A program made the translations under genes and the position numbers. The notes beneath the pieces are model-generated. The model had not been told where the DNA came from. It searched no databases and was given only the letters and a program-made list of their open reading frames with translations. 64,000 nt of DNA, from NCBI RefSeq assembly GCF_003018255.1, contig NZ_CP027440.1; one strand, given 5' to 3'. Each line of letters begins with the position of its first letter. Position 1 is the first letter of the stretch. Shown in pieces: positions 13,041 through 43,502 of this stretch. This DNA comes from Escherichia coli (lineage in GTDB: Bacteria; Pseudomonadota; Gammaproteobacteria; Enterobacterales; Enterobacteriaceae).

Positions 13041-13206
13041 TTTTATGTAAGCATAGTTCAGAAAAGTATTGTGTGATCTTAGTAACAAATAATGTTATTA
13101 ATTAAACATTGACCATGATTATATTTCACGGTCATACATTTATATATTTAATTAAATGAAAGGTAGTGTTCTCTCTTAATTTATGGTCGTTTGTCGAGTG
13201 TATTGA

Positions 13207-14331: not shown

Positions 14332-14338
14332 ATATCAC

Positions 14339-14360
14339 CAACGATTTCACAAGGTCGTTG
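14339..14360. promoter_or_regulatory. Candidate operator palindrome in the divergent promoter region
   Basis: CAACGA-N10-TCGTTG inverted repeat immediately upstream of the Cys-rich ORF start and about 100 bp upstream of paralog C. Confidence 0.3.
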
Positions 14361-14463
14361 ATTTTGTCCGGCAACTATCCCCTGCAGATGTGATTACTCT
14401 CACATAAATAAGTCTTTCAGAACGTAATGTAGCAATCCTTTATCTCACTGAAAGGGATTGTTT

Positions 14464-16017: not shown

Positions 16018-16327
16018 AAGTGCGCACTGAATTGACTCAACTGTTTGTTACCCGTTGATTGCGCAGATCCTGTATTCGGCCTACGCGAGGGCGCAGGCCG
16101 AATCAGATGCCTTAGCATCACCATCCGGTGGCAGGACGTTGTTTTTCGAATTAGCCCAGGTGTCGCTGTGTTGTCAGAATATGAGTCAAAACGTGCGAGG
16201 TGGATTGTGCTATAGAGAAATCTTTTATCGCCTCTAATTAAGATGAGTTTTTTTCATCTTCCCTGATTTTTCCTCACCATCATTGGTTATTTTTCGGTTG
16301 ACGCCCTTCGGCTTTTCCTTCATCTTT

Positions 16328-20823: not shown

Positions 20824-21441
20824 TTATTTAGCAAAATACCGATAGTGCCCCACCATCCGCCAGCTAAACAGTACATCTTCTTCCTGCGCGCCTGCGCCAA
20901 TGTTATGTATCACCAGCGGCGTACCGTCGCGGGCGAAGCCATCTGACACCACCCCAATATGTGCCAGCCCGTTATCTAATCGCCAGGAGACAATATCGCC
21001 CGCTTGATAGTCACTGGGGTTCTTGCTGGTGGGGCGTGTTTTATCGTGGCGGGTAAACCAGGTTTCCAGATTAGGCACCCGGCGGTGATCGATGTTGCTG
21101 TCCGGGCGCTTTAACTGCCATTTTTGCGGGTACGCAGCAAAATTCTTCGCCATATCTTCGTGCACCAGTTTCTGCAAATCGACCTTCTGGCTGCGCAATG
21201 CACGGATCACCACATCGGAACATACGCCGCGTTCTTGCGGGACATCACCGCCAGGATAGGTAAGCTGCACATACGCCGGATCGTAAAATAGCGTGCTGCC
21301 GATTTGCTGTCTGGCGCCGTCTGCGATGGCAAGATTGGTGTTGGCCTGGATTTGTACCACGGTTGGTGGAACGGCGGGAGATTTTAAGGAGTAACTGGTA
21401 AATACCGTCAGAAGACTGAATAACGCCAGTGAAGCTTTCAT
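20824..21441 (-). CDS. yijF: DUF1287-family exported protein YijF
   Basis: 205-aa ORF with signal peptide MKASLALFSLLTVFTSYS. Confidence 0.8.
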   Translation of the reverse strand: MKASLALFSLLTVFTSYSLKSPAVPPTVVQIQANTNLAIADGARQQIGSTLFYDPAYVQLTYPGGDVPQERGVCSDVVIRALRSQKVDLQKLVHEDMAKNFAAYPQKWQLKRPDSNIDHRRVPNLETWFTRHDKTRPTSKNPSDYQAGDIVSWRLDNGLAHIGVVSDGFARDGTPLVIHNIGAGAQEEDVLFSWRMVGHYRYFAK

Positions 21442-21716: not shown

Positions 21717-22820
21717 TTATTCCCACTCTTGCAGGAAACGCTGACCATACTGGTCGGCTACCAGCAGTGCGGCGTAAACCTGATCTGGCGTCGCGCCGCC
21801 AGGCATGTTGTGGATGGTTTCACCTTCTGCACATGCCGCTTCTGCCACAATTCGCATTTTCGCCGGGACATCTTCTTTAATATCCAGTTGAGCGAGAGTT
21901 ATTGGCAAACCTACCGCATGGCTAAGTGCAGCTACGGTTTCGATTTCCTCCACCGGCGCGTTTTCCAGAACCAGCTGCGTCAGCGTACCAAATGCCACTT
22001 TTTCACCGTGGTAATAGTGATGCGCGTCCGGGATAGCGGTCAGGCCGTTATGCACCGCGTGAGCCGCCGCCAGCCCGCCGCTTTCAAAACCAACGCCGCT
22101 CAAATAGGTGTTCGCTTCAATCACGCGCTCCAGCGCCGGGGTTACTACATGCTGCTCGGCGGCAAGCATCGCTTTTTCGCCTTCTTCCAGCAGGGTGTTG
22201 TAGCACAGTTCAGCCAGTGCCAGCGCCGCCTGGGTGCACTTGCCGCCCGCCATGGTGGTCGCGCCGCTACGAGAGCAAGCACGCGCTTCAAACCAGGTTG
22301 CCAGCGCATCGCCGATACCCGCCGCTAACAGACGTGCAGGTGCGCCAGCGACGATTTTGGTGTCGACAATGACCATATTCGGGTTATTTGGCAACATCAG
22401 ATAGCGGTCAAATTCACCATCATCGGTGTAGATAACAGACAATGCGCTGCACGGTGCGTCGGTAGAGGCGATAGTCGGTGCGATCGCTACCGGAACACCC
22501 ATGAAATGTGCCAGTGCTTTGGCAGTATCGAGAGTTTTTCCGCCACCGATACCGAGAATTGCGCCACACTGCGCAGTCTCCGCGATGCCACGCAGACGGT
22601 CGATCTCATTTTGCGAACATTCACCGCCAAACGGCGCAATTTCTACTACCAGTCCAGCATCTTTAAAGCTTTTCTCGACAGTGGATTGAGCAAAACCTAA
22701 AACAAATTTGTCACCCACCACTAACCAGCGTTCTGCCAGCGGCTTCAGGTATTCGCCCAGACGATTAATCACATCAGCGCCCTGGATGTATTTACCCGGT
22801 GATTGAATAATGCGGTCCAT
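21717..22820 (-). CDS. gldA: Glycerol dehydrogenase
   Basis: Track ORF 21717..22859 trimmed to [24 protein letters not shown]... (367 aa); iron-containing alcohol dehydrogenase family. Confidence 0.9.
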
Positions 22821-22830
22821 AATTGCTCCT

Positions 22831-23493
22831 TTAGAGATGAGTAGTGCCAAATGCGGCATTCCAGTCGTGTTCGAACTTCTCTATAGCTGACTCTACCGCA
22901 GGGGTGTTGAGCATTTGTTGCGCTACATCTAAGGGCAGGGTGATGGATTCACATCCTGCCAGTAAACAGTCCAGCGCCTGACGTGGTGTTTTAAAGCTGG
23001 CAGCCAGCACCATGCTTTCTGGCGCATGCATTTCCAACAGCGCTTGCAGCTCCTGTACAGTACGAATGCCGTCACCGCCCTGGGCATCTACGCGGTTAAC
23101 GTATGGAGCAACGTATTTGGCTCCAGCCAGCGCCGCCAGTAATCCTTGCGCTGCGCTGTACACTGCGGTTCCCAGCGTAGTAATGCCTTCTTTCTTCAGC
23201 ATTTTAATTGCTGCCAGACCTTCAGAGGTTACCGGAATTTTAACCACAATGCCCGGAATAGCGTCGCGCAGGCGTTTCGCTTCTTTCACCATACCCTGCG
23301 CGTCGCGGCTCATGGTCTGAGCAAACAGAATTCCCTCATCACCGATCGCTTTTTGAAGGCGCGGCAGCACTTCCCAGATGGACTCCTTGCTGGCAGCGAT
23401 AATGCTCGGGTTAGTTGTCACCCCGGCAATCGGGAATATGCGTGCCAGACGTTCGACTTCTGCGACGTTAGCGGTGTCCAGATACAGTTCCAT
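22831..23493 (-). CDS. fsaB: Fructose-6-phosphate aldolase 2 (transaldolase-like)
   Basis: 220-aa [38 protein letters not shown]... Confidence 0.9.
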
Positions 23494-23504
23494 GATGTTT
23501 CCTT

Positions 23505-26006
23505 TTACAGTTCCAGTTCATGTTGCAGCAGGCTGGCGATAGCGTCGGCAGAGGCGGCGTTAACCAGCGCGTTACGGAATTCTTCGTGCATGATGCGACG
23601 AGCGAGGCGCGAGAAAATGCGCATGTGCTGATCGCCCGCAGCATGTTTGTTCAGGGTTAACATAATGATGAATTGCGCTTCATCATCGCCCCAGCGCACC
23701 GGCGCTGCCAGACGCGCCACGCTGATGGTGGATTGCTCAATGTGTTCTGATTTGCTGTGGGGAATGGCAAAACTAAAGCCCAGACCGGTAGAGAAAACGG
23801 CCTCGCGCGCCCACAAGTCGGCTTCCAGTTTACGCGGATAGCGACAGCGGCCCGCCAGCAGCAGGTTATCGGTCATGCCTTTGAGCACTTCTTCTTTGCT
23901 GCGCCAGTCGCTTTCCAGTGTGATGCACTCGGCGGTGACCAGCGGTGCGTCTTGTTGGGTCATGCGGAATTGCGCCAGCAGGTGTTCCACTTCCAGCGAA
24001 GTACGGCAGGCCATTGCCTGGTTGAGCAACTTGCGGCACTCACGGCTATCAAGTTGCGCCATCCGCGCTTTCGCCGCCGGAATTGATGGTGCGCTCATGC
24101 TGAGTTCATCCAGCCCTAAACCGACCAGCAACGGCAGCACGGAACCTTTCGCTCCCAGTTCACCGCACAGACCAATCCATTTGCCCTGGCGATGCACCGC
24201 CTGTACGGCGTAATCGAGCGCCCGCAAGAATGCTGGATTCAGGCTGTTGTAGTGACGAGTCACCTTAGCGTTATCGCGATCCACTGCCAGTAGATATTGC
24301 GTCAGGTCATTACTACCAATACTAAAGAAATCAATCTCTTCGCAGCATTGATCGATGATGAACATCACCGACGGCACTTCCAGCATGATGCCGAGTGGAA
24401 TCTTCTCATCAAACGGAATGTGTTCGTTACGCAGTTGCTGTTTGGCTTCCGCCAGTTTTTCTTTCACCCATAAGATCTCTTCCATTGAGGAGATCATCGG
24501 GATCATGATTTTCAGGCTGCCGTGAGCAGAGGCGCGCAGGATCGACCGTAGTTGTGTGGTAAACAACGACGCGTATTCTTCATAAATACGCACCGCGCGA
24601 TAACCGAGGAACGGGTTTGCCTCTGCGGGAATATTCAGATAATCAACGGGTTTGTCACCGCCAATATCCATAGTGCGCACAATAATGCTGCGTCCGTTGG
24701 CGGACTCCAGCGCCTGACAAAAAATGTTGTACAGCTCGCTTTCGCCCGGTGCACTGGTGCGATCCATATAGAGCATTTCAGTGCGGAATAAACCAACGCC
24801 TTCCGCACCATTGCCGAATGCGGCCTGCGCTTCCACGGAGTGAGCGATGTTAGCGGCAATTTCAATGCGGATACCGTCAGCGGTACGGGCTTGTTGGGTC
24901 AGCCAGACACGCTGTTGCTCACGCAGGGCGTCCTGTACGCGGGCTTCTTGCTGATAATAACGGGCCACGGCTTCCCCTGGCTCAACCACAATCGCCCCTG
25001 CGTTGCCGTCGATATAAATCGTTTGATGCTGCCACGGAGTAAGGGCATCAATATCCACACCTACCAGCGTCGGAATGTTGAACGAACGGGCAAGGATCAC
25101 CGTATGTGAGGTGGTGCCGCCACTTTTCAGTAATAGACCTTTGAGGTGATTTTTATCCAGTTCGAGGAACTGGCTGGGGGTCAGTTCATCAGCCATACAA
25201 ATGGCGGGCTGCGTCAGTTTGCCCGGTGCCGGGAAGCGTTGCTCACCGTAGATTTGCTGGAGTAACTGGAAGCAGACGTCGCGTACGTCCAGGGCACGTT
25301 CTTGCAGGTAGCTGCTGCTGGAACGGGCGAACTCTTCGCAAAAGTGATTCGCACTGGCAACAATCGCTTCGGCGCAGCTTAATCCGGCGCTGACACCTGC
25401 CAGTAAATGTTCGCGCAGGGAAGTATCGCCAGCCAGGGATCGGTGAGCTTCCAGTATCGCGCTGGTAGCACCGTCGCTATCCAGCAGACGAAATTCAATG
25501 TTTTTCATCACCAGTGTCAGGCCGTTTTCCAGCGCGGATTGCTCGGCGTCAACGCCTTTGGCAGCAGGAAGATTACCCAGCGCATTGAGATCTAAAGAAG
25601 AGATCGGCGTCAGAATGCCGCCTGCACTACCACTGCACACGGTGCGAGCACGGATAATTTGCGGATTCAGATTGGTCAGTGAAACCGGCAGTGGTTCCAG
25701 TTCGTCAGATTTTACTTCCGCCAGCGGTGCGTCGCAGTGGGGGAATTCATCGCGCAGCCATTGGCTTAAACGCTGGTGCGCTTCCTGTTCGTCGGCCCCG
25801 GAAATCAGTAACTGGCAGTTATCGCCCACCAGCGTATCGGTGCCAATCAGCGCAAGGGCGCTTTTGGCGTTGCCCTTGCGGTCAGTGCGCAGGTTATGCC
25901 ACTCAATTTGTGATGAAAAAGTATTACACAGCGTTTCAACGTGGCTTGCCGGACGTGCATGTACGCCGTTAGGTAGCTCACAAATAAATTCCACAATCAG
26001 GGCCAT
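23505..26006 (-). CDS. ptsA: Multiphosphoryl transfer protein (Enzyme I-like / HPr-like / IIA-like fusion) of the fructose-like PTS
   Basis: 833-aa [29 protein letters not shown]... (HPr-like N-terminus), central PEP-utilising domain. Confidence 0.9.
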
Positions 26007-26314
26007 TGCCTCTCTCCCGGTACGGTTTTCTGTTTACAGGATAAGAGCGCACGGCAACGGCCTGCCATGTGACAAATCTGCCAAAAGCTGGACAAATGTA
26101 ATGTAACCGTCAATTTGCGACGCGTCTCACAAGACGCCGTTTTGCGGCATGCTTCCGGATCATCGCAAGTTATGAGGCGGATCGCATTTTTGTACTGATA
26201 TTACAAAAGTCCAGTAAATGGCCTTTTTATCCACTGTTTGCTCCGCCTGCGATTGCCTATTGTTTCCTCCATCAAAAATATGGACATGGGCTTTTGCAAG
26301 CCCGGGAGCAGCTT

Positions 26315-27394
26315 ATGAATGAGTTGGTGCAGATCCTGAAAAATACCCGTCAGCATTTAATGACGGGCGTTTCACACATGATTCCCTTCGTGGTATCGGG
26401 CGGTATTTTGCTGGCGGTTTCCGTCATGTTGTATGGCAAAGGCGCAGTGCCGGATGCCGTAGCCGATCCGAATCTGAAAAAACTGTTTGATATCGGCGTT
26501 GCGGGTTTGACGCTGATGGTGCCTTTCCTCGCCGCTTACATTGGTTACTCCATTGCAGAGCGTTCTGCGCTGGCTCCGTGCGCTATCGGTGCCTGGGTTG
26601 GTAACAGCTTTGGTGCGGGCTTCTTTGGTGCACTGATCGCCGGGATTATCGGCGGCATCGTGGTGCATTACCTGAAGAAAATTCCGGTGCATAAAGTTCT
26701 GCGCTCGGTGATGCCAATCTTCATCATTCCGATCGTCGGCACACTGATTACCGCAGGCATCATGATGTGGGGGCTGGGCGAGCCTGTGGGGGCATTGACC
26801 AACAGCCTGACTCAGTGGCTTCAGGGGATGCAGCAGGGCAGCATTGTTATGCTGGCGGTGATCATGGGCCTGATGCTGGCGTTCGATATGGGCGGTCCGG
26901 TTAACAAAGTGGCCTATGCCTTCATGCTGATTTGCGTTGCTCAGGGTGTTTATACCGTGGTGGCCATTGCTGCCGTGGGTATTTGTATTCCGCCGCTGGG
27001 GATGGGGCTGGCGACGCTGATTGGTCGTAAAAATTTCTCCGCAGAAGAGCGCGAAACCGGTAAAGCGGCGCTGGTGATGGGGTGCGTTGGGGTTACTGAA
27101 GGGGCGATTCCTTTCGCCGCTGCCGATCCGCTGCGTGTTATTCCTTCCATCATGGTCGGTTCAGTTTGTGGTGCAGTAACTGCGGCGCTGGTCGGTGCGC
27201 AGTGCTATGCAGGCTGGGGCGGTCTGATTGTGCTGCCGGTGGTTGAAGGCAAGCTGGGTTATATCGCAGCAGTAGCTGTCGGAGCAGTGGTGACGGCTGT
27301 TTGTGTGAACGTGCTGAAAAGTCTGGCGCGTAAAAATGGGTCTTCGACTGATGAAAAAGAAGACGACCTGGATTTGGATTTTGAAATTAATTAA
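26315..27394 (+). CDS. frwC: Fructose-like PTS permease IIC component
   Basis: Track ORF 26294..27394 trimmed to MNELVQILKNTRQHLMTGVSHMIPFVVSGG... (359 aa), polytopic membrane protein. Confidence 0.9.
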   Translation: MNELVQILKNTRQHLMTGVSHMIPFVVSGGILLAVSVMLYGKGAVPDAVADPNLKKLFDIGVAGLTLMVPFLAAYIGYSIAERSALAPCAIGAWVGNSFGAGFFGALIAGIIGGIVVHYLKKIPVHKVLRSVMPIFIIPIVGTLITAGIMMWGLGEPVGALTNSLTQWLQGMQQGSIVMLAVIMGLMLAFDMGGPVNKVAYAFMLICVAQGVYTVVAIAAVGICIPPLGMGLATLIGRKNFSAEERETGKAALVMGCVGVTEGAIPFAAADPLRVIPSIMVGSVCGAVTAALVGAQCYAGWGGLIVLPVVEGKLGYIAAVAVGAVVTAVCVNVLKSLARKNGSSTDEKEDDLDLDFEIN

Positions 27395-27408
27395 TTGAGG
27401 AACGAGCC

Positions 27409-27729
27409 ATGACGAAAATTATTGCAGTAACCGCGTGTCCATCTGGTGTTGCCCATACCTATATGGCGGCAGAGGCGCTGGAAAGTGCCGCGAAAGCGAA
27501 AGGCTGGGAAGTGAAAGTAGAAACCCAGGGCTCGATTGGTCTGGAAAACGAACTGACTGCGGAAGACGTGGCGAGCGCCGATATGGTGATCCTGACCAAA
27601 GATATCGGCATCAAGTTTGAAGAGCGTTTTGCTGGCAAGACCATCGTGCGCGTCAACATCAGCGACGCGGTAAAACGCGCTGATGCCATTATGAGCAAAA
27701 TTGAAGCTCACCTGGCACAAACCGCTTAA
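27409..27729 (+). CDS. frwB: Fructose-like PTS IIB component
   Basis: 106-aa ORF MTKIIAVTACPSGVAHTYMAAEALE... (IIB Cys motif). Confidence 0.9.
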   Translation: MTKIIAVTACPSGVAHTYMAAEALESAAKAKGWEVKVETQGSIGLENELTAEDVASADMVILTKDIGIKFEERFAGKTIVRVNISDAVKRADAIMSKIEAHLAQTA

Positions 27730-27779
27730 GTTCTTATCCCGCCCGTAAGGGCGGGTTCGCTTTCCCACAGGAGTTCCTC

Positions 27780-30077
27780 ATGACGAATCGTATCTCTCGC
27801 CTCAAAACTGCACTGTTTGCCAATACCCGTGAAATCTCGCTGGAGCGTGCGCTGCTTTATACCGCCAGCCATCGGCAAACCGAAGGCGAACCGGTGATAT
27901 TGCGCCGGGCGAAAGCAACAGCGTATATCCTTGAACATGTTGAAATTTCGATTCGTGATGAAGAACTGATTGCCGGTAACCGCACCGTAAAACCGCGCGC
28001 CGGGATTATGTCGCCGGAAATGGACCCTTACTGGCTGCTGAAAGAGCTGGATCAATTCCCGACGCGTCCGCAGGACCGCTTTGCTATCAGCGAAGAAGAT
28101 AAACGTATCTACCGTGAAGAGTTGTTCCCGTACTGGGAAAAACGTTCGATGAAAGATTTCATTAACGGGCAGATGACGGATGAAGTAAAAGCCGCGACCA
28201 GCACGCAGATTTTCAGCATCAACCAGACGGATAAAGGCCAGGGGCACATTATTATTGATTACCCGCGCCTGCTGAATCACGGGCTGGGTGAGCTGGTAGC
28301 GCAGATGCAGCAACATTGTCAGCAACAGCCGGAGAATCACTTTTATCAGGCAGCGCTGTTACTGCTCGAAGCCTCGCAGAAACACATTTTGCGTTACGCC
28401 GAACTGGCGGAAACGATGGCGGCAAGCTGCACTGATGCCCAGCGTCGCGAAGAACTGCTGACTATTGCGGAGATCTCCCGCCATAACGCCGAACATAAGC
28501 CGCAGACGTTCTGGCAGGCGTGCCAGTTATTCTGGTACATGAACATCATTCTGCAATACGAATCCAACGCCAGTTCACTATCGTTGGGGCGCTTCGACCA
28601 GTATATGTTGCCGTTCTATCAGGCATCATTAACCCAGGGCGAAGATCCGGCGTTCCTGAAAGAACTGCTCGAATCTTTATGGGTGAAATGCAACGACATC
28701 GTGCTGTTGCGCTCCACCAGTAGCGCGCGTTATTTCGCCGGTTTCCCGACCGGCTATACCGCACTGCTCGGCGGGTTAACCGAGAACGGACGTAGCGCGG
28801 TGAACGTGCTTTCGTTCCTTTGCCTTGACGCTTATCAAAGCGTGCAATTACCGCAACCGAACCTCGGCGTGCGCACTAACGCCTTGATCGACACGCCGTT
28901 CCTGATGAAAACCGCAGAAACCATTCGCCTCGGCACCGGTATTCCGCAAATCTTTAACGATGAAGTGGTGGTGCCAGCGTTCCTCAACCGTGGCGTTTCG
29001 CTGGAAGATGCACGCGACTATTCCGTAGTGGGCTGTGTGGAATTATCTATTCCCGGCAGAACCTACGGCTTGCATGACATCGCGATGTTTAATCTGCTGA
29101 AAGTGATGGAAATCTGCCTGCATGAAAATGAAGGCAATGCTGCGCTGACTTATGAAGGTTTACTGGAGCAGATCCGCGCCAAGATCAGCCACTACATCAC
29201 CCTGATGGTTGAGGGCAGCAATATTTGCGATATCGGTCACCGTGACTGGGCACCTGTACCGCTGCTCTCATCGTTTATCAGCGATTGTCTGGAAAAAGGC
29301 AGCGATATTACCGATGGCGGCGCGCGTTATAACTTCTCCGGCGTACAGGGGATCGGTATCGCCAACCTGAGCGATTCTCTCCATGCGTTGAAAGGGATGG
29401 TTTTTGAGCAACAGCGTTTAAGTTTTGACGAATTGCTGTCGGTATTAAAAGCCAACTTCGCAACGCCAGAAGGCGAAAAAGTCCGTGCTCGCTTAATTAA
29501 CCGCTTCGAGAAATACGGTAACGATATCGACGAGGTGGATAACATCAGCGCCGAACTGTTACGCCACTACTGCAAAGAAGTGGAAAAATACCAGAACCCG
29601 CGCAGCGGCTACTTCACGCCGGGATCGTATACCGTTTCTGCTCACGTCCCGTTGGGATCGGTGGTTGGCGCGACGCCAGACGGTCGTTTTGCCGGGGAAC
29701 AACTGGCAGACGGCGGCTTGTCACCCATGCTGGGCCAGGACGCACAAGGGCCAACGGCGGTACTGAAGTCAGTCAGTAAGCTCGATAATACGCTGCTGTC
29801 TAACGGTACGTTGCTGAACGTGAAATTCACTCCGGCGACTCTGGAAGGTGAAGCGGGATTACGCAAACTGGCCGACTTCTTACGGGCGTTTACCCAGCTT
29901 AAGTTGCAGCATATTCAGTTTAACGTGGTGAACGCCGACACGTTGCGGGAAGCGCAACAGCGCCCACAAGATTATGCCGGGCTGGTGGTGCGCGTTGCCG
30001 GATACAGCGCCTTCTTTGTCGAATTGTCGAAGGAGATCCAGGATGACATCATCCGCCGGACAGCGCATCAGCTGTAA
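27780..30077 (+). CDS. pflD: Glycyl-radical enzyme, PFL-like (formate acetyltransferase 2 homolog), substrate unknown
   Basis: 765-aa ORF; glycyl-radical motif VVRVAGYSAFF near the C-terminus. Confidence 0.9.
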   Translation: MTNRISRLKTALFANTREISLERALLYTASHRQTEGEPVILRRAKATAYILEHVEISIRDEELIAGNRTVKPRAGIMSPEMDPYWLLKELDQFPTRPQDRFAISEEDKRIYREELFPYWEKRSMKDFINGQMTDEVKAATSTQIFSINQTDKGQGHIIIDYPRLLNHGLGELVAQMQQHCQQQPENHFYQAALLLLEASQKHILRYAELAETMAASCTDAQRREELLTIAEISRHNAEHKPQTFWQACQLFWYMNIILQYESNASSLSLGRFDQYMLPFYQASLTQGEDPAFLKELLESLWVKCNDIVLLRSTSSARYFAGFPTGYTALLGGLTENGRSAVNVLSFLCLDAYQSVQLPQPNLGVRTNALIDTPFLMKTAETIRLGTGIPQIFNDEVVVPAFLNRGVSLEDARDYSVVGCVELSIPGRTYGLHDIAMFNLLKVMEICLHENEGNAALTYEGLLEQIRAKISHYITLMVEGSNICDIGHRDWAPVPLLSSFISDCLEKGSDITDGGARYNFSGVQGIGIANLSDSLHALKGMVFEQQRLSFDELLSVLKANFATPEGEKVRARLINRFEKYGNDIDEVDNISAELLRHYCKEVEKYQNPRSGYFTPGSYTVSAHVPLGSVVGATPDGRFAGEQLADGGLSPMLGQDAQGPTAVLKSVSKLDNTLLSNGTLLNVKFTPATLEGEAGLRKLADFLRAFTQLKLQHIQFNVVNADTLREAQQRPQDYAGLVVRVAGYSAFFVELSKEIQDDIIRRTAHQL

Positions 30078-30921
30078 CGTTGTGGAAACGCGCCGCAATG
30101 ATGTGGCGCGCATTTTCAACATTCAGCGTTATTCACTGAATGACGGCGAGGGCATTCGTACGGTGGTCTTTTTTAAAGGCTGTCCGCATCTTTGCCCATG
30201 GTGTGCTAATCCGGAGTCGATCTCCGGCAAAATCCAGACGGTACGCAGAGAGGCGAAATGTCTGCACTGTGCGAAATGTTTGCGTGATGCGGATGAATGC
30301 CCCTCCGGGGCGTTTGAACGGATTGGCCGCGATATCAGCCTTGACGCGCTGGAGCGGGAAGTGATGAAAGATGACATTTTCTTTCGCACGTCCGGCGGCG
30401 GCGTCACGCTTTCTGGCGGCGAAGTGTTAATGCAGGCGGAGTTTGCTACCCGTTTTTTACAGCGGCTGCGGTTGTGGGGCGTGTCATGCGCCATTGAAAC
30501 TGCCGGAGACGCGCCAGCCAGCAAGCTGTTACCGCTGGCGAAATTGTGCGATGAAGTGTTGTTCGATTTAAAAATTATGGACGCGACTCAGGCGCGGGAT
30601 GTGGTGAAGATGAATCTGCCACGCGTGCTGGAGAATCTGCGTTTGCTGGTGAGTGAGGGCGTCAACGTGATCCCGCGTTTACCGCTGATCCCTGGTTTCA
30701 CGCTCAGCCAGGAGAATATGCAGCAGGCTCTGGACGTGCTGATCCCGCTGAATATCAGGCAGATCCATCTGTTACCGTTTCATCAGTACGGCGAACCGAA
30801 ATACCGCCTGCTGGGGAAAACATGGTCGATGAAAGAGGTGCCTGCGCCGTCGTCAGCTGATGTGGCAACGATGCGCGAAATGGCAGAACGGGCCGGATTT
30901 CAGGTTACCGTGGGAGGTTAA
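30043..30921 (+). CDS. pflC: Glycyl-radical enzyme activating protein (radical SAM)
   Basis: Track ORF 29974..30921 trimmed to MTSSAGQRISCNVVETRRNDVARIF... (292 aa); CPHLCPWC radical-SAM cluster motif; start overlaps pflD 3' end by 35 nt. Confidence 0.9.
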   Translation: MTSSAGQRISCNVVETRRNDVARIFNIQRYSLNDGEGIRTVVFFKGCPHLCPWCANPESISGKIQTVRREAKCLHCAKCLRDADECPSGAFERIGRDISLDALEREVMKDDIFFRTSGGGVTLSGGEVLMQAEFATRFLQRLRLWGVSCAIETAGDAPASKLLPLAKLCDEVLFDLKIMDATQARDVVKMNLPRVLENLRLLVSEGVNVIPRLPLIPGFTLSQENMQQALDVLIPLNIRQIHLLPFHQYGEPKYRLLGKTWSMKEVPAPSSADVATMREMAERAGFQVTVGG

Positions 30922-30922
30922 A

Positions 30923-31264
30923 ATGGCATACCTGGTGGCAGTAACCGCCTGCGTCAGTGGCGTGGCGCATACTTATATGGCGGCGGAACGGCTGGAAAAG
31001 TTGTGCCTGTTAGAGAAGTGGGGCGTCAGCATTGAAACTCAGGGCGCGCTGGGAACGGAGAATCGTTTAGCGGACGAGGATATCCGCCGGGCGGATGTTG
31101 CGCTGTTAATTACGGATATCGAGCTTGCCGGTGCTGAGCGATTTGACCATTGCCGCTATGTGCAATGCAGCATCTACGCTTTCCTTCGTGAGCCGCAGCG
31201 GGTGATGAGCGCGGTACGCAAAGTGCTTTCTGCGCCGCAGCAAACCCATCTCATTCTGGAGTAG
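30923..31264 (+). CDS. frwD: Fructose-like PTS IIB component 2
   Basis: Track ORF 30860..31264 trimmed to MAYLVAVTACVSGVAHTYMAAERLEK... (113 aa). Confidence 0.9.
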   Translation: MAYLVAVTACVSGVAHTYMAAERLEKLCLLEKWGVSIETQGALGTENRLADEDIRRADVALLITDIELAGAERFDHCRYVQCSIYAFLREPQRVMSAVRKVLSAPQQTHLILE

Positions 31265-32102
31265 TCGGTTTTTCTGTCAGTTGGCTGTGGTACTGCCGAC
31301 GATATTCCGACGGTGAGCGTTCGGTATTTTTACGAAACAGACGGCAGAAGTAGTTGCTGTCGACAAAGCCGCAGGCGTGCGCCACTTCTTTTACCTTCAG
31401 GTCATAGCCTTTCAATAACGTCTTAGCGTGCTCCAGTCGCGTGTGATTCAGGTATTCGTTAAAACCAGTGGCCCCCGTTTTTTGAAACAGGTGCGAGAGG
31501 TAATTTGGCGAAATATAGAATGCCTGTGCGACAGATTCGCGGGTAAGCGCGGAGGCATAGCGTTCGTCGATATAATCACGAATAGCTTCGAACAGTGCCT
31601 GGCTGCGTGAGGCGGTCTGGATTTGGCTGCCAAGCAAATCGCGGCAGTGGCTAAGCAGGCTGGCGACGATAAGCCTTGCCGTTTGCTGCTCCTGCGACTG
31701 CATTTGCATTTCATTGAGCGTTTGTAGCAGAAAAGAACCTATGCGTGGGCCGCGTCGGGCGACGTGTTGCTTCGCCAGATTTTGATATTGTTTGCCATCC
31801 CATTGCACGACGCTGAAGCCGAGTTGCTGTTTGCCAAACAGCACGCTAAAGGTAGTGGCGGGGGCTTGCCATTGTGGAAAATTCCAGCCACCAGCGGGAA
31901 CGTACAGCACATCGCCGGGAACTAACGCTGCTCCAGCGCCGGTATCAATAAACTCACCTTCCAGCACAATTTCCAGCCGTGGAAAATCGACCTGATACGC
32001 AAGATCGGGCACCGGGCCGTTGCTGCTGGCAAAGTAAATCTGGCGCAGGGACAGCGGGCCGTTGATCAGGCGGGAGAGCAGATAGCTGACGTCGTGATAC
32101 AT
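31251..32102 (-). CDS. yijO: AraC/XylS-family transcriptional regulator
   Basis: 283-aa ORF; C-terminal AraC-type HTH region (...NYLSHLFQKTGATGFNEYLNHTRLEHAKTLL...); 3' end overlaps frwD convergently by 14 nt. Confidence 0.85.
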   Translation of the reverse strand: MYHDVSYLLSRLINGPLSLRQIYFASSNGPVPDLAYQVDFPRLEIVLEGEFIDTGAGAALVPGDVLYVPAGGWNFPQWQAPATTFSVLFGKQQLGFSVVQWDGKQYQNLAKQHVARRGPRIGSFLLQTLNEMQMQSQEQQTARLIVASLLSHCRDLLGSQIQTASRSQALFEAIRDYIDERYASALTRESVAQAFYISPNYLSHLFQKTGATGFNEYLNHTRLEHAKTLLKGYDLKVKEVAHACGFVDSNYFCRLFRKNTERSPSEYRRQYHSQLTEKPTTPE

Positions 32103-32147
32103 GTTATTCCCTTAGGTATGTAGACGGGAAAACAGTAACTGGCATTA

Positions 32148-32178
32148 TGAAAAAAGGCCACCTGAAAAGTGTGGCCTG
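32148..32178 (-). terminator. Rho-independent terminator downstream of eptC
   Basis: aggccacac/gtggcct hairpin followed by T-run on the minus strand. Confidence 0.5.
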
Positions 32179-32224
32179 ATGGGAGTGAGATGTAAACATT
32201 GCGGCAGTTTCAGTCGACTTGTAT

Positions 32225-32308
<84 letters not shown>

Positions 32309-32327
32309 AATAACATCTGGCTGATAA

Positions 32328-34061
32328 TTACTGATTACCCACCTGATCGCCATACGGCAGAGTGTCGTAATCGATCAGTGCGTTTTTCTTATACGGGTTA
32401 CCAATCCAGCGGGTAGTTTCTTTGAACTGCGGATTCACCACTGAACGGGTTGGATCGTAACCGTCGTAAGATAAGCCCGCCAAATCTGACCAGGTGTGGA
32501 TCAGTTCCGCCAGGCTGTATTTACGATCAACATCCTGTGAGAAATCACGCGGATGAGTCGCTTGCCATTTTTCTGACGTCCACAGCAGGAACGGAATGGT
32601 GTACATATGACGCGTCGGGTTGTCTTCATTACGCCCCTGAGTTTTGTGCGGCGGCGTGTCGTAAACCTCTTCACCGTGGTCAGAGAAATAAACCAGGAAA
32701 CCGTTCGGATCGGTCGCTTTAAAGTCTTTAATCAGGCTGGCAACCACGTGATCGTTGTACAGGTTAGCATTGTCATAATCATTATATGACTCCAGCTCTT
32801 CTGCGTTTAATCCCGGTGGAACATGCTCTGTATTACCGTCAAATTTGCCCTGATCTTCCGGATAACGGTACTTGTACTTGATATGCGTACCCAGCAGATG
32901 AACGATGATCAGTTTCTTCGGCGCAGGGTCCTTCAGCACTTCCTGGAACGGCTTCAGCACGTTGGTGTCGTATTCACGCGCACTCTGCGTACGTTGCTGG
33001 TTCATGTAGTACTGCTTATCGGTCTGGCGCGAAAATACCGTCAGCATGGTATTGCGGGCGGTCATCGTCTGCTGGTTGGTGATCCAGAAGGTTTTATAAC
33101 CCGCCTGTTTCATCATGTTCATCAGCGACGGCTGCGTCAGATACAGATCCGGGTTCTTTTCATTGGCAAAGGTCAGCGCCTGTTGCAGGATTTCAATGGT
33201 GTACGGACGAGACGTAACCACGTTATTAAACACGGTCAGATTCGGATCGGTTTTATGCAGCGCATCCAGCTCCGGCGTGGTTTCACGCGGATAACCGTAC
33301 AGACTCATGCGTCCACGCTGGGTCGATTCGCCAATTACCAGCACTAAGGTGCGCGGTTCGTTACCCGATTCATCTTTGAAATTCGCCAGCGGCGGCAAGG
33401 CATTATTTTCATTCAGTAGCTTTGTTAGCGAGTTTAGTTGCTGACGATACTGATAATAGCCGGTCAGGAATTGCCACGGTGCGGCAGGCTCCATACGCGA
33501 TGCCAGGTTATCCAACGTTTTCTCAAATGGCTTGTTTTTGATAAACGTATTCATGGCGATCGGATGCAGAATCAAGCCATAAAGTAGGGCAAAAGAGACA
33601 ACATAACGCCACGGCTTTGGAATATAGACCGGGCGCAGGCGCGTCCACAGCAAAACTGCCACCGCCGTATAGGCCAGCGCGATAAGCACAATCTTCAGGC
33701 TGAAATACTGGCTTAAATACTCGCTGGCTTCGTTGGTGTTGGTTTCAAACATCACAAACAGAACGCTCTGCGAGAACTCCTGACCGTAGATGACGTAGTA
33801 GCACAACGCTGCCAGAGAGGCCGCCCATAGCACCACGCCGATCACTGCGGCAATAATTTTAATCCGCTTCGGAAAGAGGAATACCGGGATCAACCACAGC
33901 GAACTGAATAACAGCGAGTCGCGAATGCCGTTAGTGCCACTATAACCACTGATGTAAATAATGGCCTGTAGCAGAGTAGAGAAAAACCAAAAGTAGAGCA
34001 GTGCCCAACCCAGGGCCTTCCAGCTAAAAAGGGGTTTAGCCTGGACTTCTGTGGAATGCAT
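32328..34061 (-). CDS. eptC: Phosphoethanolamine transferase (LPS core heptose modification)
   Basis: Track ORF 32328..34106 trimmed to MHSTEVQAKPLFSWKALGW... (577 aa); N-terminal TM helices plus sulfatase-like periplasmic domain. Confidence 0.9.
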   Translation of the reverse strand: MHSTEVQAKPLFSWKALGWALLYFWFFSTLLQAIIYISGYSGTNGIRDSLLFSSLWLIPVFLFPKRIKIIAAVIGVVLWAASLAALCYYVIYGQEFSQSVLFVMFETNTNEASEYLSQYFSLKIVLIALAYTAVAVLLWTRLRPVYIPKPWRYVVSFALLYGLILHPIAMNTFIKNKPFEKTLDNLASRMEPAAPWQFLTGYYQYRQQLNSLTKLLNENNALPPLANFKDESGNEPRTLVLVIGESTQRGRMSLYGYPRETTPELDALHKTDPNLTVFNNVVTSRPYTIEILQQALTFANEKNPDLYLTQPSLMNMMKQAGYKTFWITNQQTMTARNTMLTVFSRQTDKQYYMNQQRTQSAREYDTNVLKPFQEVLKDPAPKKLIIVHLLGTHIKYKYRYPEDQGKFDGNTEHVPPGLNAEELESYNDYDNANLYNDHVVASLIKDFKATDPNGFLVYFSDHGEEVYDTPPHKTQGRNEDNPTRHMYTIPFLLWTSEKWQATHPRDFSQDVDRKYSLAELIHTWSDLAGLSYDGYDPTRSVVNPQFKETTRWIGNPYKKNALIDYDTLPYGDQVGNQ

Positions 34062-34199
34062 AGTAAGAACCTGTCTTGAAAAAAATATCGCCGAATGTAA
34101 CGACAATTCCTTAAGGATATCTGAAGGGATATCCAGATTTTGAATAAAATGCAGACAGAAATATATTGAAAACGAGGGTGTTAGAACAGAAGTATTTCA

Positions 34200-34230
34200 G
34201 AAAACCCTCGCGCAAAAGCACGAGGGTTTG
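34200..34230 (-). terminator. Rho-independent terminator downstream of ppc
   Basis: aaaccctcg...cgagggttt hairpin followed by T-run on the minus strand. Confidence 0.6.
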
Positions 34231-34243
34231 CAGGAGAGGAAGA

Positions 34244-36895
34244 TTAGCCGGTATTACGCATACCTGCCGCAATCCCGGCAATAGTGACCATTAACGCCTG
34301 CTCGACGCGAGGATCCGGCTCATGGCCTTCTTTTTCTGCCTGGCGGGAGCGGTGCAGCAACTCGGCCTGCAATACGTTCAGCGGGTCGGTGTAAATATTC
34401 CGTAGCTGAATAGACTCTGCAATCCACGGCAGATCGGCCATCAGGTGAGAATCGTTGGCAATCGCCAGCACCACTTTGATGTCTTCTTCTTGCAGATTGC
34501 GTAACTCTTTACCTAACGGCCACAGTGCTTTGTCTACCAGGCGTTGGTCATAGTATTCCGCCAGCCACAGGTCTGCTTTGGCGAAGACCATCTCCAGCAT
34601 GCCGAGACGCGTCGAGAAGAATGGCCAATCGCGGCACATGGCTTCCAGCTCGCTCTGTTTGCCATCTTCGACCACTTTTTGCAGCGCCGTACCTGCACCC
34701 AGCCAGGCGGGGAGCATCAGGCGGTTTTGTGTCCAGGCAAAAATCCACGGAATAGCGCGCAGTGACTCAACGCCACCGGTCGGGCGACGTTTTGCCGGAC
34801 GTGAACCCAGCGGTAGTTTGCCGAGTTCCTGCTCCGGCGTGGCAGAGCGGAAGTAAGGCACAAAATCTTTGTTTTCACGCACGTAGCCGCGGTAGACATC
34901 GCATGAGATAACCGAAAGCTCATCCATAATGCGACGCCAGCTCTCTTTCGGCTCTGGCGGTGGCAGCAGGTTGGCTTCCAGAATCGCCCCGGTATACAGC
35001 GAAAGGCTGCTAACGGTGATTTCAGGCAGACCGTACTTGAAGCGGATCATCTCGCCCTGTTCGGTCACGCGCAGGCCGCCTTTCAGACTTCCTGGTGGTT
35101 GTGACAGCAGCGCCGCATGGGCAGGTGCGCCGCCGCGACCAATGGAACCGCCGCGACCGTGGAACAACGTTAGCTCAATACCCGCTTTTTCGCAGGTTTT
35201 GATTAATGCATCCTGTGCCTGATATTGCGCCCAGGAAGCTGCCATCACGCCCGCATCTTTTGCTGAGTCGGAATAGCCAATCATCACCATCTGTTTGCCC
35301 TGAATCAGGCCGCGATACCAGTCGATATTCAGCAGCTGGGTCATGACATCGTTGGCGTTGTTCAGGTCATCGAGGGTTTCAAACAGCGGAGCAACCGGCA
35401 TCGCAAACCCGATACCCGCTTCTTTCAGCAGCAGGTGGACAGCCAGCACGTCGGACGGCGTTTTCGCCATCGAGATCACGTAGGCGGCAATGGAGCCTTG
35501 CGGTGCTTCGGCAATCACCTGGCAGGTATCGAGCACTTCGCGCGTTTCGGCGCTTGGTTGCCAGTTGCGCGGTAGAAGCGGACGTTTGGAGTTCAGTTCG
35601 CGGATCAGGAACGCCTGTTTGTCGGCTTCTGACCAGCTCTCGTAGTCGCCGATACCGAGGTAGCGGGTCAGCTCGCCCAGCGCTTCGGTATGGCGGGTGC
35701 TCTCCTGACGGATATCAATACGGACCAGCGGTACGCCGAAACATTTCACGCGGCGCAGGGTGTCGAGCAGATCGCCGTTGGCGATAATACCCATGCCACA
35801 CGCCTGAAGTGACTGGTAGCAAGCGTAGAGCGGTTCCCACAGTTCTTCGTTTTGTGTCAGCAGGCCTTCTGGTTTTGGCAGTTCTTCGCCTTTCAGGCGC
35901 GCTTCCAGCCATGCCTGTGTCGCCATCAGGCGAGAACGCAGGTTTTTCATCAGATAGCGATACGGTTCTGCGGCACCTTCTTCGCCAACCAGCGCCAGCA
36001 GTTCAGGGGTCGCTTCAACCATCGACAGTTCAGAAACCAGCACCTGAATATCTTTCAGGAACAGATCGGTGGCTTTCCAGCGACTGAGCAGCAGGACGTG
36101 GCGGGTGATATCGGCAGTGACGTTCGGGTTGCCGTCGCGGTCACCGCCCATCCACGAGGTAAAACGGACCGGAACAAATTCGACGGGCAGTTTGTAGCCG
36201 AGATTCTCTTCCAGTTGTTCGTTCAGTTCGCGCAGGTAATTCGGTACGCCTTGCCACAGGCTGTTTTCTACTACGGCAAAGCCCCATTTGGCTTCATCTA
36301 CCGGGCTTGGACGCAGCTTACGGATTTCATCTGTATGCCATGACTGGGCGATCAACTGGCGCAGGCGGCGCATCAGCTGGTTATGTTCGTAGTCGGCGAT
36401 ATCTTTGTTATCGAGCTGTTTTAAGCAGGCGTTCACTTCCACCATTTTGTGGATCAGTGTACGACGGGTAATTTCGGTTGGGTGAGCCGTGAGGACCAGT
36501 TCCAGCGACAGCGATTCCACTGCTTTTTTGATGGTGTCTTCGCTCAGTTCCGGCTGGTTTTTCAGTTTACGCAGGGTGCGGGCGATCACTTCCGGGTTGC
36601 TGGCAGCTTCGCCTTTCGGCGAAATGCTGTGGTATTGCTCAGCGGTGTTGGCCAGGTTCAGGAACTGACTAAACGCACGCGCAACGGGCAGCAGCTCGTC
36701 GTTCGACAAATTTTGTAAGGTGGTGAGCAACTCCTGGCGGTTAGCATCATTGCCAGCGCGTGAAGATTTCGACAACTTACGGATAGTTTCTACGCGTTCA
36801 AGAATGTGTTCTCCCAACGCATCCTTGATGGTTTCTCCCAGCACTTTGCCGAGCATACTGACATTACTACGCAATGCGGAATATTGTTCGTTCAT
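34244..36895 (-). CDS. ppc: Phosphoenolpyruvate carboxylase
   Basis: 883-aa [33 protein letters not shown]... ending ...GMRNTG. Confidence 0.95.
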
Positions 36896-43436: not shown

Positions 43437-43502
43437 TAGCGGTTCGCTTAATTATTTTCTGAATATTCATCAAATCGATTAATTCCGCTCAAGGAGCTAA
43501 AA

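What the first reader, a model, noticed from the sequence alone, without database searches (positions are those of the whole stretch)
30043..31264. Compact gene overlaps in the frw/pfl cluster
pflC begins 35 nt before the pflD stop in another frame, suggesting translational coupling of the glycyl-radical enzyme and its activase. The frwD and yijO 3' ends overlap convergently by 14 nt (31251-31264) with no room for terminators, implying transcriptional interference or shared termination.
Basis: seen in the sequence. Interest (0 to 1): 0.15.

Follow-up and report, generated by a model that had tools for sequence, protein, structure and literature searches.

The report
Real, already-annotated E. 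coli gene overlaps
Both overlaps are genuine, already-annotated boundaries in the E. coli frw/pfl sugar-alcohol cluster: comparison across species shows that the activase gene pflC really starts inside pflD, while the tail-to-tail frwD/yijO overlap is an ordinary case already listed in a published catalogue of convergent transcript overlaps.

Summary
Observation confirmed. pflC (ATG 30043) starts 35 nt before the pflD stop (TAA 30075-30077), in the +1 frame. frwD (TAG 31262-31264) and yijO (TGA on the minus strand, 31251-31253) overlap tail-to-tail by 14 nt. RefSeq annotates the same coordinates.

Comparative evidence supports the pflC start:
- In 57 gammaproteobacterial orthologues, the spacer between the pflD stop and the conserved activase core takes 14 lengths. 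All keep the frame and none contains a stop codon.
- The ATG is present in 55 of 57.
- The K, E and D codons that form the AAGGAG Shine-Dalgarno sequence and the ATG are the most codon-biased conserved columns of their residue class in pflD.
- The downstream GTG alternatives are not conserved.
- The first ~20 PflC residues are an unconserved, disordered leader.

Translational coupling is plausible but not shown. An overlap of 35 nt lies outside the range of efficient termination-reinitiation. In Escherichia the Shine-Dalgarno sequence is predicted to be masked by a hairpin.

The frwD/yijO overlap is exactly 14 nt in 18 of 35 species. It uses tails outside both conserved domains, and no intrinsic terminator is predicted nearby. 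The pair is already listed among 165 convergent "excludons" of E. coli found by RNA-seq.

Verdict: ordinary and already known, low interest.

The parts
27780..30077 (+). pflD, glycyl radical enzyme (765 aa); its C-terminus ...RVAGYSAFFVELSKEIQDDIIRRTAHQL* is nearly invariant across orthologues
   Evidence: PDB 8yjo 'Probable dehydratase PflD'
30011..30035 (+). Predicted hairpin: CUUCUUUG (30011-30018, pflD Phe-Phe codons) pairs with CGAAGGAG (30028-30035, the pflC Shine-Dalgarno sequence)
   Evidence: MFE structure; z -1.68, not significant on its own; probability that the Shine-Dalgarno sequence is unpaired is 0.00-0.02 in Escherichia, against 0.37-0.43 for synonymous recodings; weak covariation. 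Status: suggestive only.
30030..30035 (+). pflC Shine-Dalgarno sequence AAGGAG, formed by the pflD codons Lys-Glu
   Evidence: AAG is used in 96% and GAG in 89% of orthologues, against column means of 38% and 45%; each is rank 1 in its class (for Glu only).
30043..30045 (+). pflC start codon ATG, formed by the pflD codons GAT-G(AC)
   Evidence: Present in 55 of 57 orthologues. GAT is used in 96% against a 59% column mean, rank 1 of 31.
30043..30077 (+). 35-nt co-directional overlap of pflD and pflC (pflC in the +1 frame)
30043..30102 (+). Codons 1-20 of pflC: an unconserved, variable-length N-terminal leader that precedes the conserved core beginning ARIFNIQRYS
   Evidence: alignment. PFL-AE residue 3 aligns to PflC residue 21; pLDDT below 50 for residues 1-16, and no secondary structure before residue 21.
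30043..30921 (+). pflC, radical-SAM glycyl radical enzyme activase (292 aa; Cys cluster C47/C51/C54)
30923..31264 (+). frwD, PTS IIB component (113 aa). It starts 1 nt after the pflC stop, with GGGAGG at 30912-30917.
31251..32102 (-). yijO, AraC-family regulator (283 aa). The HTH domain ends at residue 270, and the last 5 residues (PTTPE) are poorly conserved.
31251..31264 (.). 14-nt convergent overlap of the frwD and yijO 3' ends

Best explanation
Both overlaps are real, evolutionarily stable gene boundaries in the frw/pfl (1,5-anhydromannitol utilisation) cluster.

(1) pflD/pflC. pflC is translated from ATG 30043 using the Shine-Dalgarno sequence AAGGAG 30030-30035. Both signals are written into synonymous positions of the last 16 codons of pflD and kept there by selection. 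The overlap arose when the pflC start moved upstream into pflD, not when the pflD stop moved. The 20-40 residues this adds to PflC are an unconstrained, disordered leader. So selection acts on where initiation happens, not on the peptide.

Most likely mechanism (inferred): ribosomes initiate de novo at this internal site. In Escherichia the site is normally masked by pairing with the Phe-Phe codons 12-24 nt upstream. Activase synthesis would therefore be low and tied to ribosome traffic on pflD, which is coupling of the RNA-unfolding type.

(2) frwD/yijO. The two genes interdigitate because YijO's non-conserved C-terminal tail reads across the complement of frwD's last four codons and its stop. 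Neither transcript has an intrinsic terminator, so each must run into the other gene. That produces complementary 3' ends, a convergent 'excludon'. The yijO transcript probably ends by Rho within the C-rich antisense of frwD.

My sub-probabilities:
- start codon correct: ~0.93
- any dependence of pflC translation on pflD translation: ~0.5
- unmasking as the route: ~0.35
- transcripts overlap: ~0.85
- the overlap has a regulatory consequence: ~0.3
For: Shown here, pflC start:
- The coordinates match RefSeq.
- In all 57-58 gammaproteobacterial orthologues, pflC is in the same frame relative to pflD. The distance from the pflD stop to the IFNIQRYS core takes 14 values between 31 and 91 nt, all equal to 1 mod 3, with no in-frame stop. 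That needs at least 13 indels, all multiples of three; by chance this is about (1/3)^13 = 6e-7.
- The ATG at -35 is present in 55 of 57. The two exceptions carry an ATG at -11, still inside pflD.
- The position of the E. coli GTG 30103 is T, K, R or Q in other genera, and GTG 30082 is not conserved either.
- Codon choice: AAG 0.96 against a mean of 0.38 (rank 1 of 19 conserved Lys columns); GAG 0.89 against 0.45 (1 of 25); GAT 0.96 against 0.59 (1 of 31).
- Synonymous codon entropy over the last 17-19 pflD codons has mean z -1.15. Every other 50-column bin lies between -0.44 and +0.32.

Shown here, origin of the overlap and the leader:
- Firmicute relatives end the glycyl radical enzyme at the same aligned residue but start the activase after the stop, in mixed frames. 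This shows a 5' extension of pflC.
- The leader is unconserved, absent from solved PFL-AE and disordered in the AlphaFold model.

Shown here, masking of the Shine-Dalgarno sequence:
- Predicted probability that it is unpaired is 0.00-0.02 in Escherichia, against 0.37-0.43 for synonymous recodings.
- 40 of 54 orthologues fall below the median of their recodings, and 16 of 54 fall below the 10th percentile.

Shown here, frwD/yijO:
- The convergent arrangement is conserved from Escherichia to Vibrio and Hahella. The overlap is exactly 14 nt in 18 of 35 species. Most others range from +17 to -22 nt; two have gaps of 76 and 136 nt.
- Both tails lie outside the conserved domains.
- No terminator-like site is found near the junction, and local folds are no better than shuffles.
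- The minus-strand RNA downstream of the yijO stop has a C/G ratio of 1.5-2.4 over about 280 nt, which is rut-like.

Published:
- frwD-yijO is in the RNA-seq-derived E. coli excludome (PMC12288877).
- RNA-unfolding coupling works at large overlaps, for example MS2 coat/lysis at -50 nt (PMC12548453).
Against: - No experimental start-site, ribosome-profiling or reporter data for pflC were found.
- The conserved Shine-Dalgarno sequence and ATG prove that the site is used. They do not prove that its use depends on pflD translation.
- The masking hairpin is short (8 bp with G-U pairs). It is not significant against dinucleotide shuffles (z -1.68) and shows almost no covariation.
- The hairpin is predicted open in the Klebsiella oxytoca group, Buttiauxella and some Rahnella. 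The orthologues are also not independent samples.
- Geometry is awkward for the unmasking model: the loop is only 9 nt, so a ribosome covering the 5' arm is close to occluding the Shine-Dalgarno sequence.
- For frwD/yijO, the overlap length drifts between lineages and YijO's tail is dispensable in Leclercia, Edwardsiella hoshinae and Cedecea. This argues that the exact overlap is not itself functional.
- The C/G-ratio argument for Rho is a heuristic.
Confidence: 0.6

Rival explanations
1. Neutral boundary drift. Both overlaps are by-products of genome compaction and have no regulatory role. pflC is translated independently from its own Shine-Dalgarno sequence whatever happens on pflD. The frwD/yijO overlap merely reflects a stop codon that happens to lie 14 nt into the neighbour.
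For: - pflC has a strong canonical Shine-Dalgarno sequence and ATG at ideal spacing.
- The leader peptide is unconstrained.
- YijO's tail is variable, and the overlap ranges from +17 to -22 nt across genera.
- Overlaps of similar size are common in this same window: btuB/murI 56 nt, oxyR/sthA 18 nt.
- The literature states that long overlaps typically lack termination-reinitiation coupling (PMC10666635).
Against: - The overlapped start has been kept for the whole depth of Enterobacterales, Vibrionales, Pasteurellales and Orbales, although a downstream start would be easy to evolve.
- There is a skew towards a masked Shine-Dalgarno sequence.
- The tail-to-tail spacing of frwD and yijO stays at 22 nt or less in 32 of 35 species.
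- The pair is called as an excludon from RNA-seq.
Confidence: 0.35
2. Termination-reinitiation. Ribosomes finishing pflD at 30077 scan back 35 nt and restart at ATG 30043, as described for the phage fr coat and lysis genes.
For: - The phage fr coat/lysis pair is coupled at a comparable overlap, given as 34 nt in PMC10666635 and -38 nt in PMC12548453.
- A Shine-Dalgarno sequence is present, which could capture a scanning ribosome.
Against: On three native E. coli pairs, reinitiation fell 40-80% at +14 nt and was almost abolished at +38 nt (PMC10666635).
Confidence: 0.12
3. The pflC start is misannotated. Translation really begins at GTG 30082 or GTG 30103, downstream of the pflD stop, so there is no overlap.
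For: - The paralogous activase YbiY and the Firmicute relatives start only a few residues before the IFNIQ motif.
- E. coli has in-frame GTGs at both positions.
- The first 20 residues are dispensable-looking.
Against: - These GTGs are not conserved: the equivalent codon is T, K, R or Q in other genera.
- There is no Shine-Dalgarno sequence upstream of either.
- The spacer keeps the reading frame through at least 13 indels with no stop codon.
- The upstream Shine-Dalgarno sequence and ATG are under synonymous-site selection.
Confidence: 0.04
4. A programmed +1 frameshift near the pflD 3' end makes a PflD-PflC fusion protein, using the conserved open linker.
For: - The pflC frame is open across the whole junction in all orthologues.
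Against: - No slippery or stall motif was identified.
- The conserved Shine-Dalgarno sequence and ATG already explain the open frame.
- The only apparent in-frame 'fusion' (L064) turned out to be a record with multiple homopolymer frameshifts.
Confidence: 0.01

Closest known systems
Phage MS2 / fr coat-lysis gene overlap (coupled genes with -38 to -50 nt spacing)
   Same: Both have a co-directional overlap of tens of nucleotides, with the downstream start lying inside the upstream ORF. They are the accepted precedents for coupling at this distance, by RNA unfolding or by back-scanning (PMC12548453; PMC10666635).
   Different: Coupling was demonstrated experimentally in the phages, but nothing has been tested for pflD/pflC. 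pflC also has a strong canonical Shine-Dalgarno sequence.
E. coli -4/-1 nt overlapping pairs (ATGA, TGATG) coupled by termination-reinitiation, e.g. hyfH-hyfI, menD-menH
   Same: Both are same-operon, co-directional overlapping genes whose products act together. Here the pair is an enzyme and its activase.
   Different: The overlap is 35 nt, not 1-4 nt, and reinitiation efficiency collapses at such distances on native pairs. An enzyme-activase pair also needs unequal rather than 1:1 stoichiometry.
RNA-unfolding coupling (atpH-atpA, rpmI-rplT)
   Same: The downstream ribosome-binding site is predicted to be sequestered by sequence within the upstream ORF.
   Different: The structure here is short, weakly supported and not universal. 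Dependence on upstream translation has not been tested.
Convergent excludons of E. coli (ExcludonFinder list of 165, which includes frwD-yijO and oxyR-sthA)
   Same: The pair consists of convergent neighbours whose transcripts overlap at the 3' ends, and this very pair is on the list.
   Different: The coding sequences themselves overlap here, whereas the mean intergenic distance in the list is 95 nt. No reciprocal-expression or RNase III data specific to this pair were found.
Other E. coli glycyl radical enzyme / activase pairs (ybiY-ybiW)
   Same: The protein families are the same.
   Different: In ybiY-ybiW the activase comes first, with a 5-nt gap and no overlap. From my own knowledge, not checked here, pflB-pflA are separated.

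Membership tests
Translational coupling by termination-reinitiation | Stop of the upstream gene and start of the downstream gene overlap or lie within a few nt (-4, -1, up to about +10) | tested here: not met
   The start lies 35 nt upstream of the end of the stop codon. The distance dependence comes from PMC10666635.
Translational coupling by termination-reinitiation | Downstream translation depends on ribosomes terminating at the upstream stop | not testable with these tools
   This needs reporter fusions with premature or displaced stop codons.
Translational coupling by RNA unfolding | Ribosome-binding site of the downstream gene sequestered in structure formed with the upstream ORF | tested here: inconclusive
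   In Escherichia the probability that the Shine-Dalgarno sequence is unpaired is 0.00-0.02, against 0.37-0.43 for synonymous recodings (percentile 0-5%). Overall, 16 of 54 orthologues fall below the 10th percentile and 4 of 54 above the 90th. Covariation is minimal, and z is -1.68.
Genuine overlapping CDS pair (as opposed to a start-codon misannotation) | Reading frame and start signals conserved across orthologues; no conserved alternative start downstream | tested here: met
   There are 14 spacer lengths, all in frame, with no stop codons. The ATG is present in 55 of 57. The codons forming the Shine-Dalgarno sequence and the ATG are the top-ranked columns for codon bias. Alternative GTGs are not conserved.
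Convergent excludon | Convergent neighbours whose transcripts overlap | tested here: met
   The CDS overlap of 14 nt forces the mRNAs to overlap. The pair is listed in the RNA-seq-derived E. coli excludome (PMC12288877).
Convergent excludon | Mutually exclusive expression, or RNase III processing of the duplex | not tested
   No pair-specific data were found, and the paper's supplements are not held.
Bidirectional intrinsic terminator shared by convergent genes | GC-rich hairpin flanked by an A-tract and a T-tract at the junction | tested here: not met
   There is no terminator-like site near 31251-31264 on either strand. Folds of both strands are no better than shuffles (z -0.56 and +0.37).
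Glycyl radical enzyme activase (radical SAM; NCBIfam NF007483 / TIGR02494) | CxxxCxxC cluster and full-length match above the curated cut-off | tested here: met
   NF007483 scores 629.6 bits (cut-off 326) over residues 1-292, and TIGR02494 scores 262 bits (cut-off 174). C47, C51 and C54 are invariant.
Glycyl radical enzyme (PFL-like plus Gly_radical domains) | PF02901 and PF01228 domains, and the RVxG glycyl motif | tested here: met
   The domains are found, the RVAGYS motif, and PDB 8yjo matches over the full length.

The most novel reading that the evidence does not exclude
The pflC initiation site embedded in pflD is a conserved ratio-setting device. A masked Shine-Dalgarno sequence inside the enzyme gene would make activase synthesis a small, fixed fraction of glycyl radical enzyme synthesis across four orders of Gammaproteobacteria. 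In addition, read-through of the induced frw-pfl operon into antisense yijO would feed back on the cluster's own AraC-type regulator.
Probability: 0.2. Interest if true: 0.3.

Novelty: already known. Interest (0 to 1): 0.1.

Why it matters
The value is mainly practical.
- The analysis gives independent, comparative support for the annotated PflC N-terminus.
- It shows that the first ~20 residues are a dispensable-looking leader.
- It shows that 'silent' changes in the last ~20 codons of pflD are not neutral. Codon-optimising or tagging the pflD 3' end would destroy the pflC ribosome-binding site. This matters for anyone engineering the PflD/PflC 1,5-anhydromannitol pathway.
- Beyond that, the locus is one more example of common bacterial gene-boundary compaction and does not open a new question.

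Tried and rejected
- **Downstream GTG starts (30082, 30103).** I considered them because YbiY and Firmicute activases start just before IFNIQ. I rejected them for lack of conservation.
- **Shared or bidirectional terminator at the frwD/yijO junction.** None was found by the pattern scan, and folds of both strands are no better than shuffles.
- **Known RNA families in 23000-35000.** The only hits were sub-threshold REP-like matches in the yijO-eptC spacer. Nothing matched at either overlap.
- **Covariation support for the hairpin that masks the Shine-Dalgarno sequence.** RNAalifold gives a covariation term of only -0.78 kcal/mol. The pairing follows largely from Phe-Phe codons opposite AAGGAG, so it remains suggestive only.
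- **An apparent in-frame pflD-pflC fusion in Kluyvera genomosp. 3 (L064).** The record has multiple homopolymer frameshifts, so this is a pseudogene or an assembly error.
- **Literature gaps.**
  - The full text of Ma et al. on PflD function is not in the library, so its findings are cited through PMC12441222.
  - One search failed on term syntax.
  - The ExcludonFinder supplements are not held.
  - I found no ribosome-profiling or N-terminomics evidence for pflC. I did not search the supplementary tables of translation-initiation-site profiling papers.
Full report
**What is there**

Window 23.5-37 kb is the E. coli frw/pfl cluster:

| Gene | Coordinates | Strand |
|---|---|---|
| ptsA | 23505-26006 | - |
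| frwC | 26315-27394 | + |
| frwB | 27409-27729 | + |
| pflD | 27780-30077 | + |
| pflC | 30043-30921 | + |
| frwD | 30923-31264 | + |
| yijO | 31251-32102 | - |
| eptC | not examined | - |
| ppc | not examined | - |

Reading the sequence and translating the frames gives these boundaries:
- pflD ends at TAA 30075-30077.
- pflC's ATG is at 30043-30045, one base to the right of the pflD frame. It is preceded by AAGGAG at 30030-30035.
- frwD ends at TAG 31262-31264.
- yijO's stop is TGA on the minus strand at 31251-31253.

RefSeq has the same boundaries in a 99.9% identical strain and in another E. coli. Protein family searches confirm the identities:
- PflD has PFL-like and Gly_radical domains.
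- PflC is a radical-SAM activase, matching NF007483 over residues 1-292.
- FrwD is a PTS IIB component.
- YijO is an AraC-type regulator.

**Is the pflC start real?**

E. coli has in-frame GTGs at 30082 and 30103, just after the pflD stop. Related activases (YbiY and Firmicute homologues) start only a few residues before the conserved IFNIQRYS motif. I fetched 80 loci encoding PflC relatives from species-representative genomes and analysed the junction.

- **Frame preservation.** In all 57-58 gammaproteobacterial orthologues (Escherichia to Yersinia, Hafnia, Rahnella, Edwardsiella, Gilliamella, Necropsobacter, Vibrio, Photobacterium, Hahella), the PflD C-terminus ...SKEIQDDIIRRTAHQL* is almost invariant. 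The distance from the pflD stop to the IFNIQ motif takes 14 values (31, 34, 40, 43, 46, 49, 52, 58, 61, 64, 67, 82, 85, 91 nt). Every one equals 1 mod 3, and no in-frame stop occurs. At least 13 indels, all multiples of three, would occur by chance with a probability of about (1/3)^13 = 6e-7. The spacer is therefore translated, and the start must lie inside pflD.
- **Conservation of the ATG.** The ATG at -35 is present in 55 of 57. The two exceptions are Vibrio hannami and a Hahella MAG, which have GAC instead of GAT. Both carry an ATG at -11, still inside pflD.
- **Downstream alternatives.** The codon equivalent to E. coli GTG 30103 is T, K, R or Q elsewhere, and GTG 30082 is not conserved either.
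- **Firmicute relatives.** They end the glycyl radical enzyme at the same aligned residue but start the activase after the stop, with gaps of 11-38 nt in mixed frames. The overlap therefore arose by a 5' extension of pflC, not by loss of the pflD stop.

**Selection on the embedded signals**

All columns of one alignment share the same tree. I therefore compared codon choice at the Lys, Glu and Asp codons that make AAGGAG and the ATG with every other conserved Lys, Glu and Asp column of pflD, using 54 full-length orthologues.

| Codon | Frequency at this column | Mean of conserved columns | Rank |
|---|---|---|---|
| AAG (Lys) | 0.96 | 0.38 | 1 of 19 |
| GAG (Glu) | 0.89 | 0.45 | 1 of 25 |
| GAT (Asp) | 0.96 | 0.59 | 1 of 31 |

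- Where Lys is replaced, the replacement codon is CAG or CGG, which keeps the purine-rich core: AGGAG with CAG, GGGAG or GGGAA with CGG.
- Synonymous codon entropy over the last 17-19 codons has mean z -1.15. Every other 50-column bin lies between -0.44 and +0.32.

The Shine-Dalgarno sequence and the ATG are thus maintained by selection at silent sites of pflD.

In contrast, the encoded peptide is not constrained:
- PflC residues 1-20 vary freely in sequence and length.
- They are absent from the solved PFL activase, where residue 3 aligns to PflC residue 21.
- AlphaFold models them as disordered: pLDDT is below 50 for residues 1-16, and the first strand starts at residue 21.

**Does the overlap mean translational coupling?**

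This is not shown.
- Published work on native E. coli pairs finds termination-reinitiation highly distance-dependent. It falls 40-80% at +14 nt and is almost abolished at +38 nt (PMC10666635).
- The phage fr and MS2 coat/lysis pairs show that coupling is possible at -38 to -50 nt. A recent review notes that large overlaps suit the RNA-unfolding model (PMC12548453).
- In E. coli the minimum-free-energy fold pairs CUUCUUUG (30011-30018, pflD Phe-Phe codons) with CGAAGGAG (30028-30035).
- I compared each orthologue with 150 synonymous recodings of its 20 upstream codons. The probability that the Shine-Dalgarno sequence is unpaired is 0.00-0.02 in Escherichia, against 0.37-0.43 expected. Forty of 54 orthologues fall below the median of their recodings, and 16 of 54 fall below the 10th percentile.
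- The AFFVE codons that form the 5' arm also show reduced synonymous entropy.
- Against this, the helix is short and covariation is negligible. Some genera are predicted open. The 9-nt loop leaves little room for a ribosome to unmask the site without occluding it.

I therefore rate some dependence on pflD translation at about 0.5, and unmasking as the route at about 0.35.

**The convergent overlap**

- **Conservation.** The frwD/yijO tail-to-tail arrangement is conserved from Escherichia to Vibrio and Hahella. The overlap is exactly 14 nt in 18 of 35 species with the pair: Escherichia, Citrobacter, Phytobacter, Pluralibacter, Enterobacter and Buttiauxella. Fifteen species range from +17 to -22 nt, and gaps over 70 nt occur in only two. 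I corrected two rows by hand where tblastn had aligned through a stop, and dropped one row (L070) as a doubtful orthologue.
- **Protein tails.** The overlap uses YijO's last five residues. These vary (PTTPE, KVSPE, AASSE and others), are missing in Leclercia, E. hoshinae and Cedecea, and lie beyond the HTH domain, which ends at residue 270 of 283. On the other strand it uses FrwD's THLILE tail, beyond the PTS_IIB core.
- **Termination.** No terminator-like site lies near the junction. One site was found in 29500-32600, inside pflD, against 3.6 expected by chance. Folds of both strands are no better than shuffles.
- **Rho heuristic.** The minus-strand RNA downstream of the yijO stop is C-rich and G-poor, with a C/G ratio of 1.5-2.4 over about 280 nt (95th-99th percentile of the window). 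This is compatible with Rho loading. The plus-strand RNA downstream of frwD has no such stretch for several hundred nt.
- **Published evidence.** The pair frwD-yijO is already listed among 165 convergent excludons of E. coli MG1655 derived from 58 RNA-seq data sets. So is oxyR-sthA, an 18-nt convergent overlap in this same window (PMC12288877).
- **Open point.** Whether the overlap has any regulatory effect is untested. YijO is still described as a regulator of unknown function (PMC9308461).

**Context and verdict**

PflD is no longer a 'putative formate acetyltransferase'. It cleaves 1,5-anhydromannitol-6-phosphate (Ma et al., cited in PMC12441222; PDB 8yjo). The neighbouring ptsA, fsaB and gldA genes would fit that pathway; that reading rests on my recollection of Ma et al. 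and was not checked here.

Overlaps of this size are frequent even within this window: btuB/murI 56 nt, oxyR/sthA 18 nt, murB/birA 4 nt and fabR/yijD 1 nt.

The finding is correct as an observation, and its interpretation is reasonable but only partly demonstrable. It is already captured by standard annotation and a published catalogue. The one useful addition from this work is comparative proof that the pflC ribosome-binding site is a selected element inside pflD.

Noticed in passing
window 45938-45955: oxyR (+) and sthA (-) overlap convergently by 18 nt. This pair is also in the published E. coli excludon list (PMC12288877).
   Followed up: partly
window 52016-52071; 59411-59414; 48320: The window contains other co-directional overlaps: btuB/murI 56 nt, murB/birA 4 nt and fabR/yijD 1 nt. 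A 35-nt overlap is therefore not exceptional locally.
   Followed up: no
window 21717-31264: RefSeq product names for pflD and pflC ('formate C-acetyltransferase' and its activase) are outdated. PDB 8yjo and Ma et al. (via PMC12441222) make PflD a 1,5-anhydromannitol-6-phosphate-cleaving glycyl radical enzyme. Adjacent are gldA, fsaB and ptsA on the minus strand and frwCBD on the plus strand; that they belong to the same pathway is from memory of Ma et al., not checked here.
   Followed up: partly
window 32203-32344: Two sub-threshold naRNA4 (RF02564) matches of 43 and 34 bits, which I take to be REP-type repeats, lie at the yijO-eptC junction; the second runs into the 3' end of eptC (stop at 32328).
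   Followed up: no
L049, L051, L053, L054, L056, L066, L070 (junction about 3460-3540): Vibrionaceae and Hahella orthologues carry a second in-frame ATG 11 nt before the pflD stop, from CAT GAA ('HEL*'). Some have lost the -35 ATG (L049, L056) or its Shine-Dalgarno sequence (AAA GAA in L051, L053, L054; CGG GAA in L056, L070). L049 and L051-L054 also use the rare Arg codon AGA just upstream. This suggests that the start site shifted within the overlap in that lineage.
   Followed up: partly
window 30046-30048 (pflD codon GAC, pflC codon 2): The second Asp codon of pflD's QDD motif is GAC in 52 of 57 orthologues, the opposite of the gene-wide GAT preference. This fixes Thr as PflC residue 2.
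   Followed up: no
window 29700-31600: This stretch is at least 99% identical to only 4 of 5418 complete E. coli genomes and 95-99% identical to the rest. The source strain or this region belongs to an uncommon lineage or allele.
   Followed up: no
window 8836-16028 and 42222-44786: A tsx-like gene, three 5'-nucleotidase-like genes and a hypothetical gene lie between metL and metF. manD plus an MFS transporter lie between argH and oxyR. From memory these are absent at these positions in K-12, so they may be accessory insertions.
   Followed up: no
window 20835-21441: yijF is annotated as a frameshifted pseudogene in the 99.9% identical strain NZ_CP116067.
   Followed up: no
L064 3390-4400: Kluyvera genomosp. 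3 YDC799 has several homopolymer frameshifts in pflD and pflC. This is either a pseudogene or long-read assembly error. It briefly looked like a pflD-pflC fusion.
   Followed up: yes
L083 2675-6012 (E. coli K-12 860174-863511): The paralogous pair ybiY-ybiW has the opposite order, with the activase first, a 5-nt gap and no overlap.
   Followed up: partly
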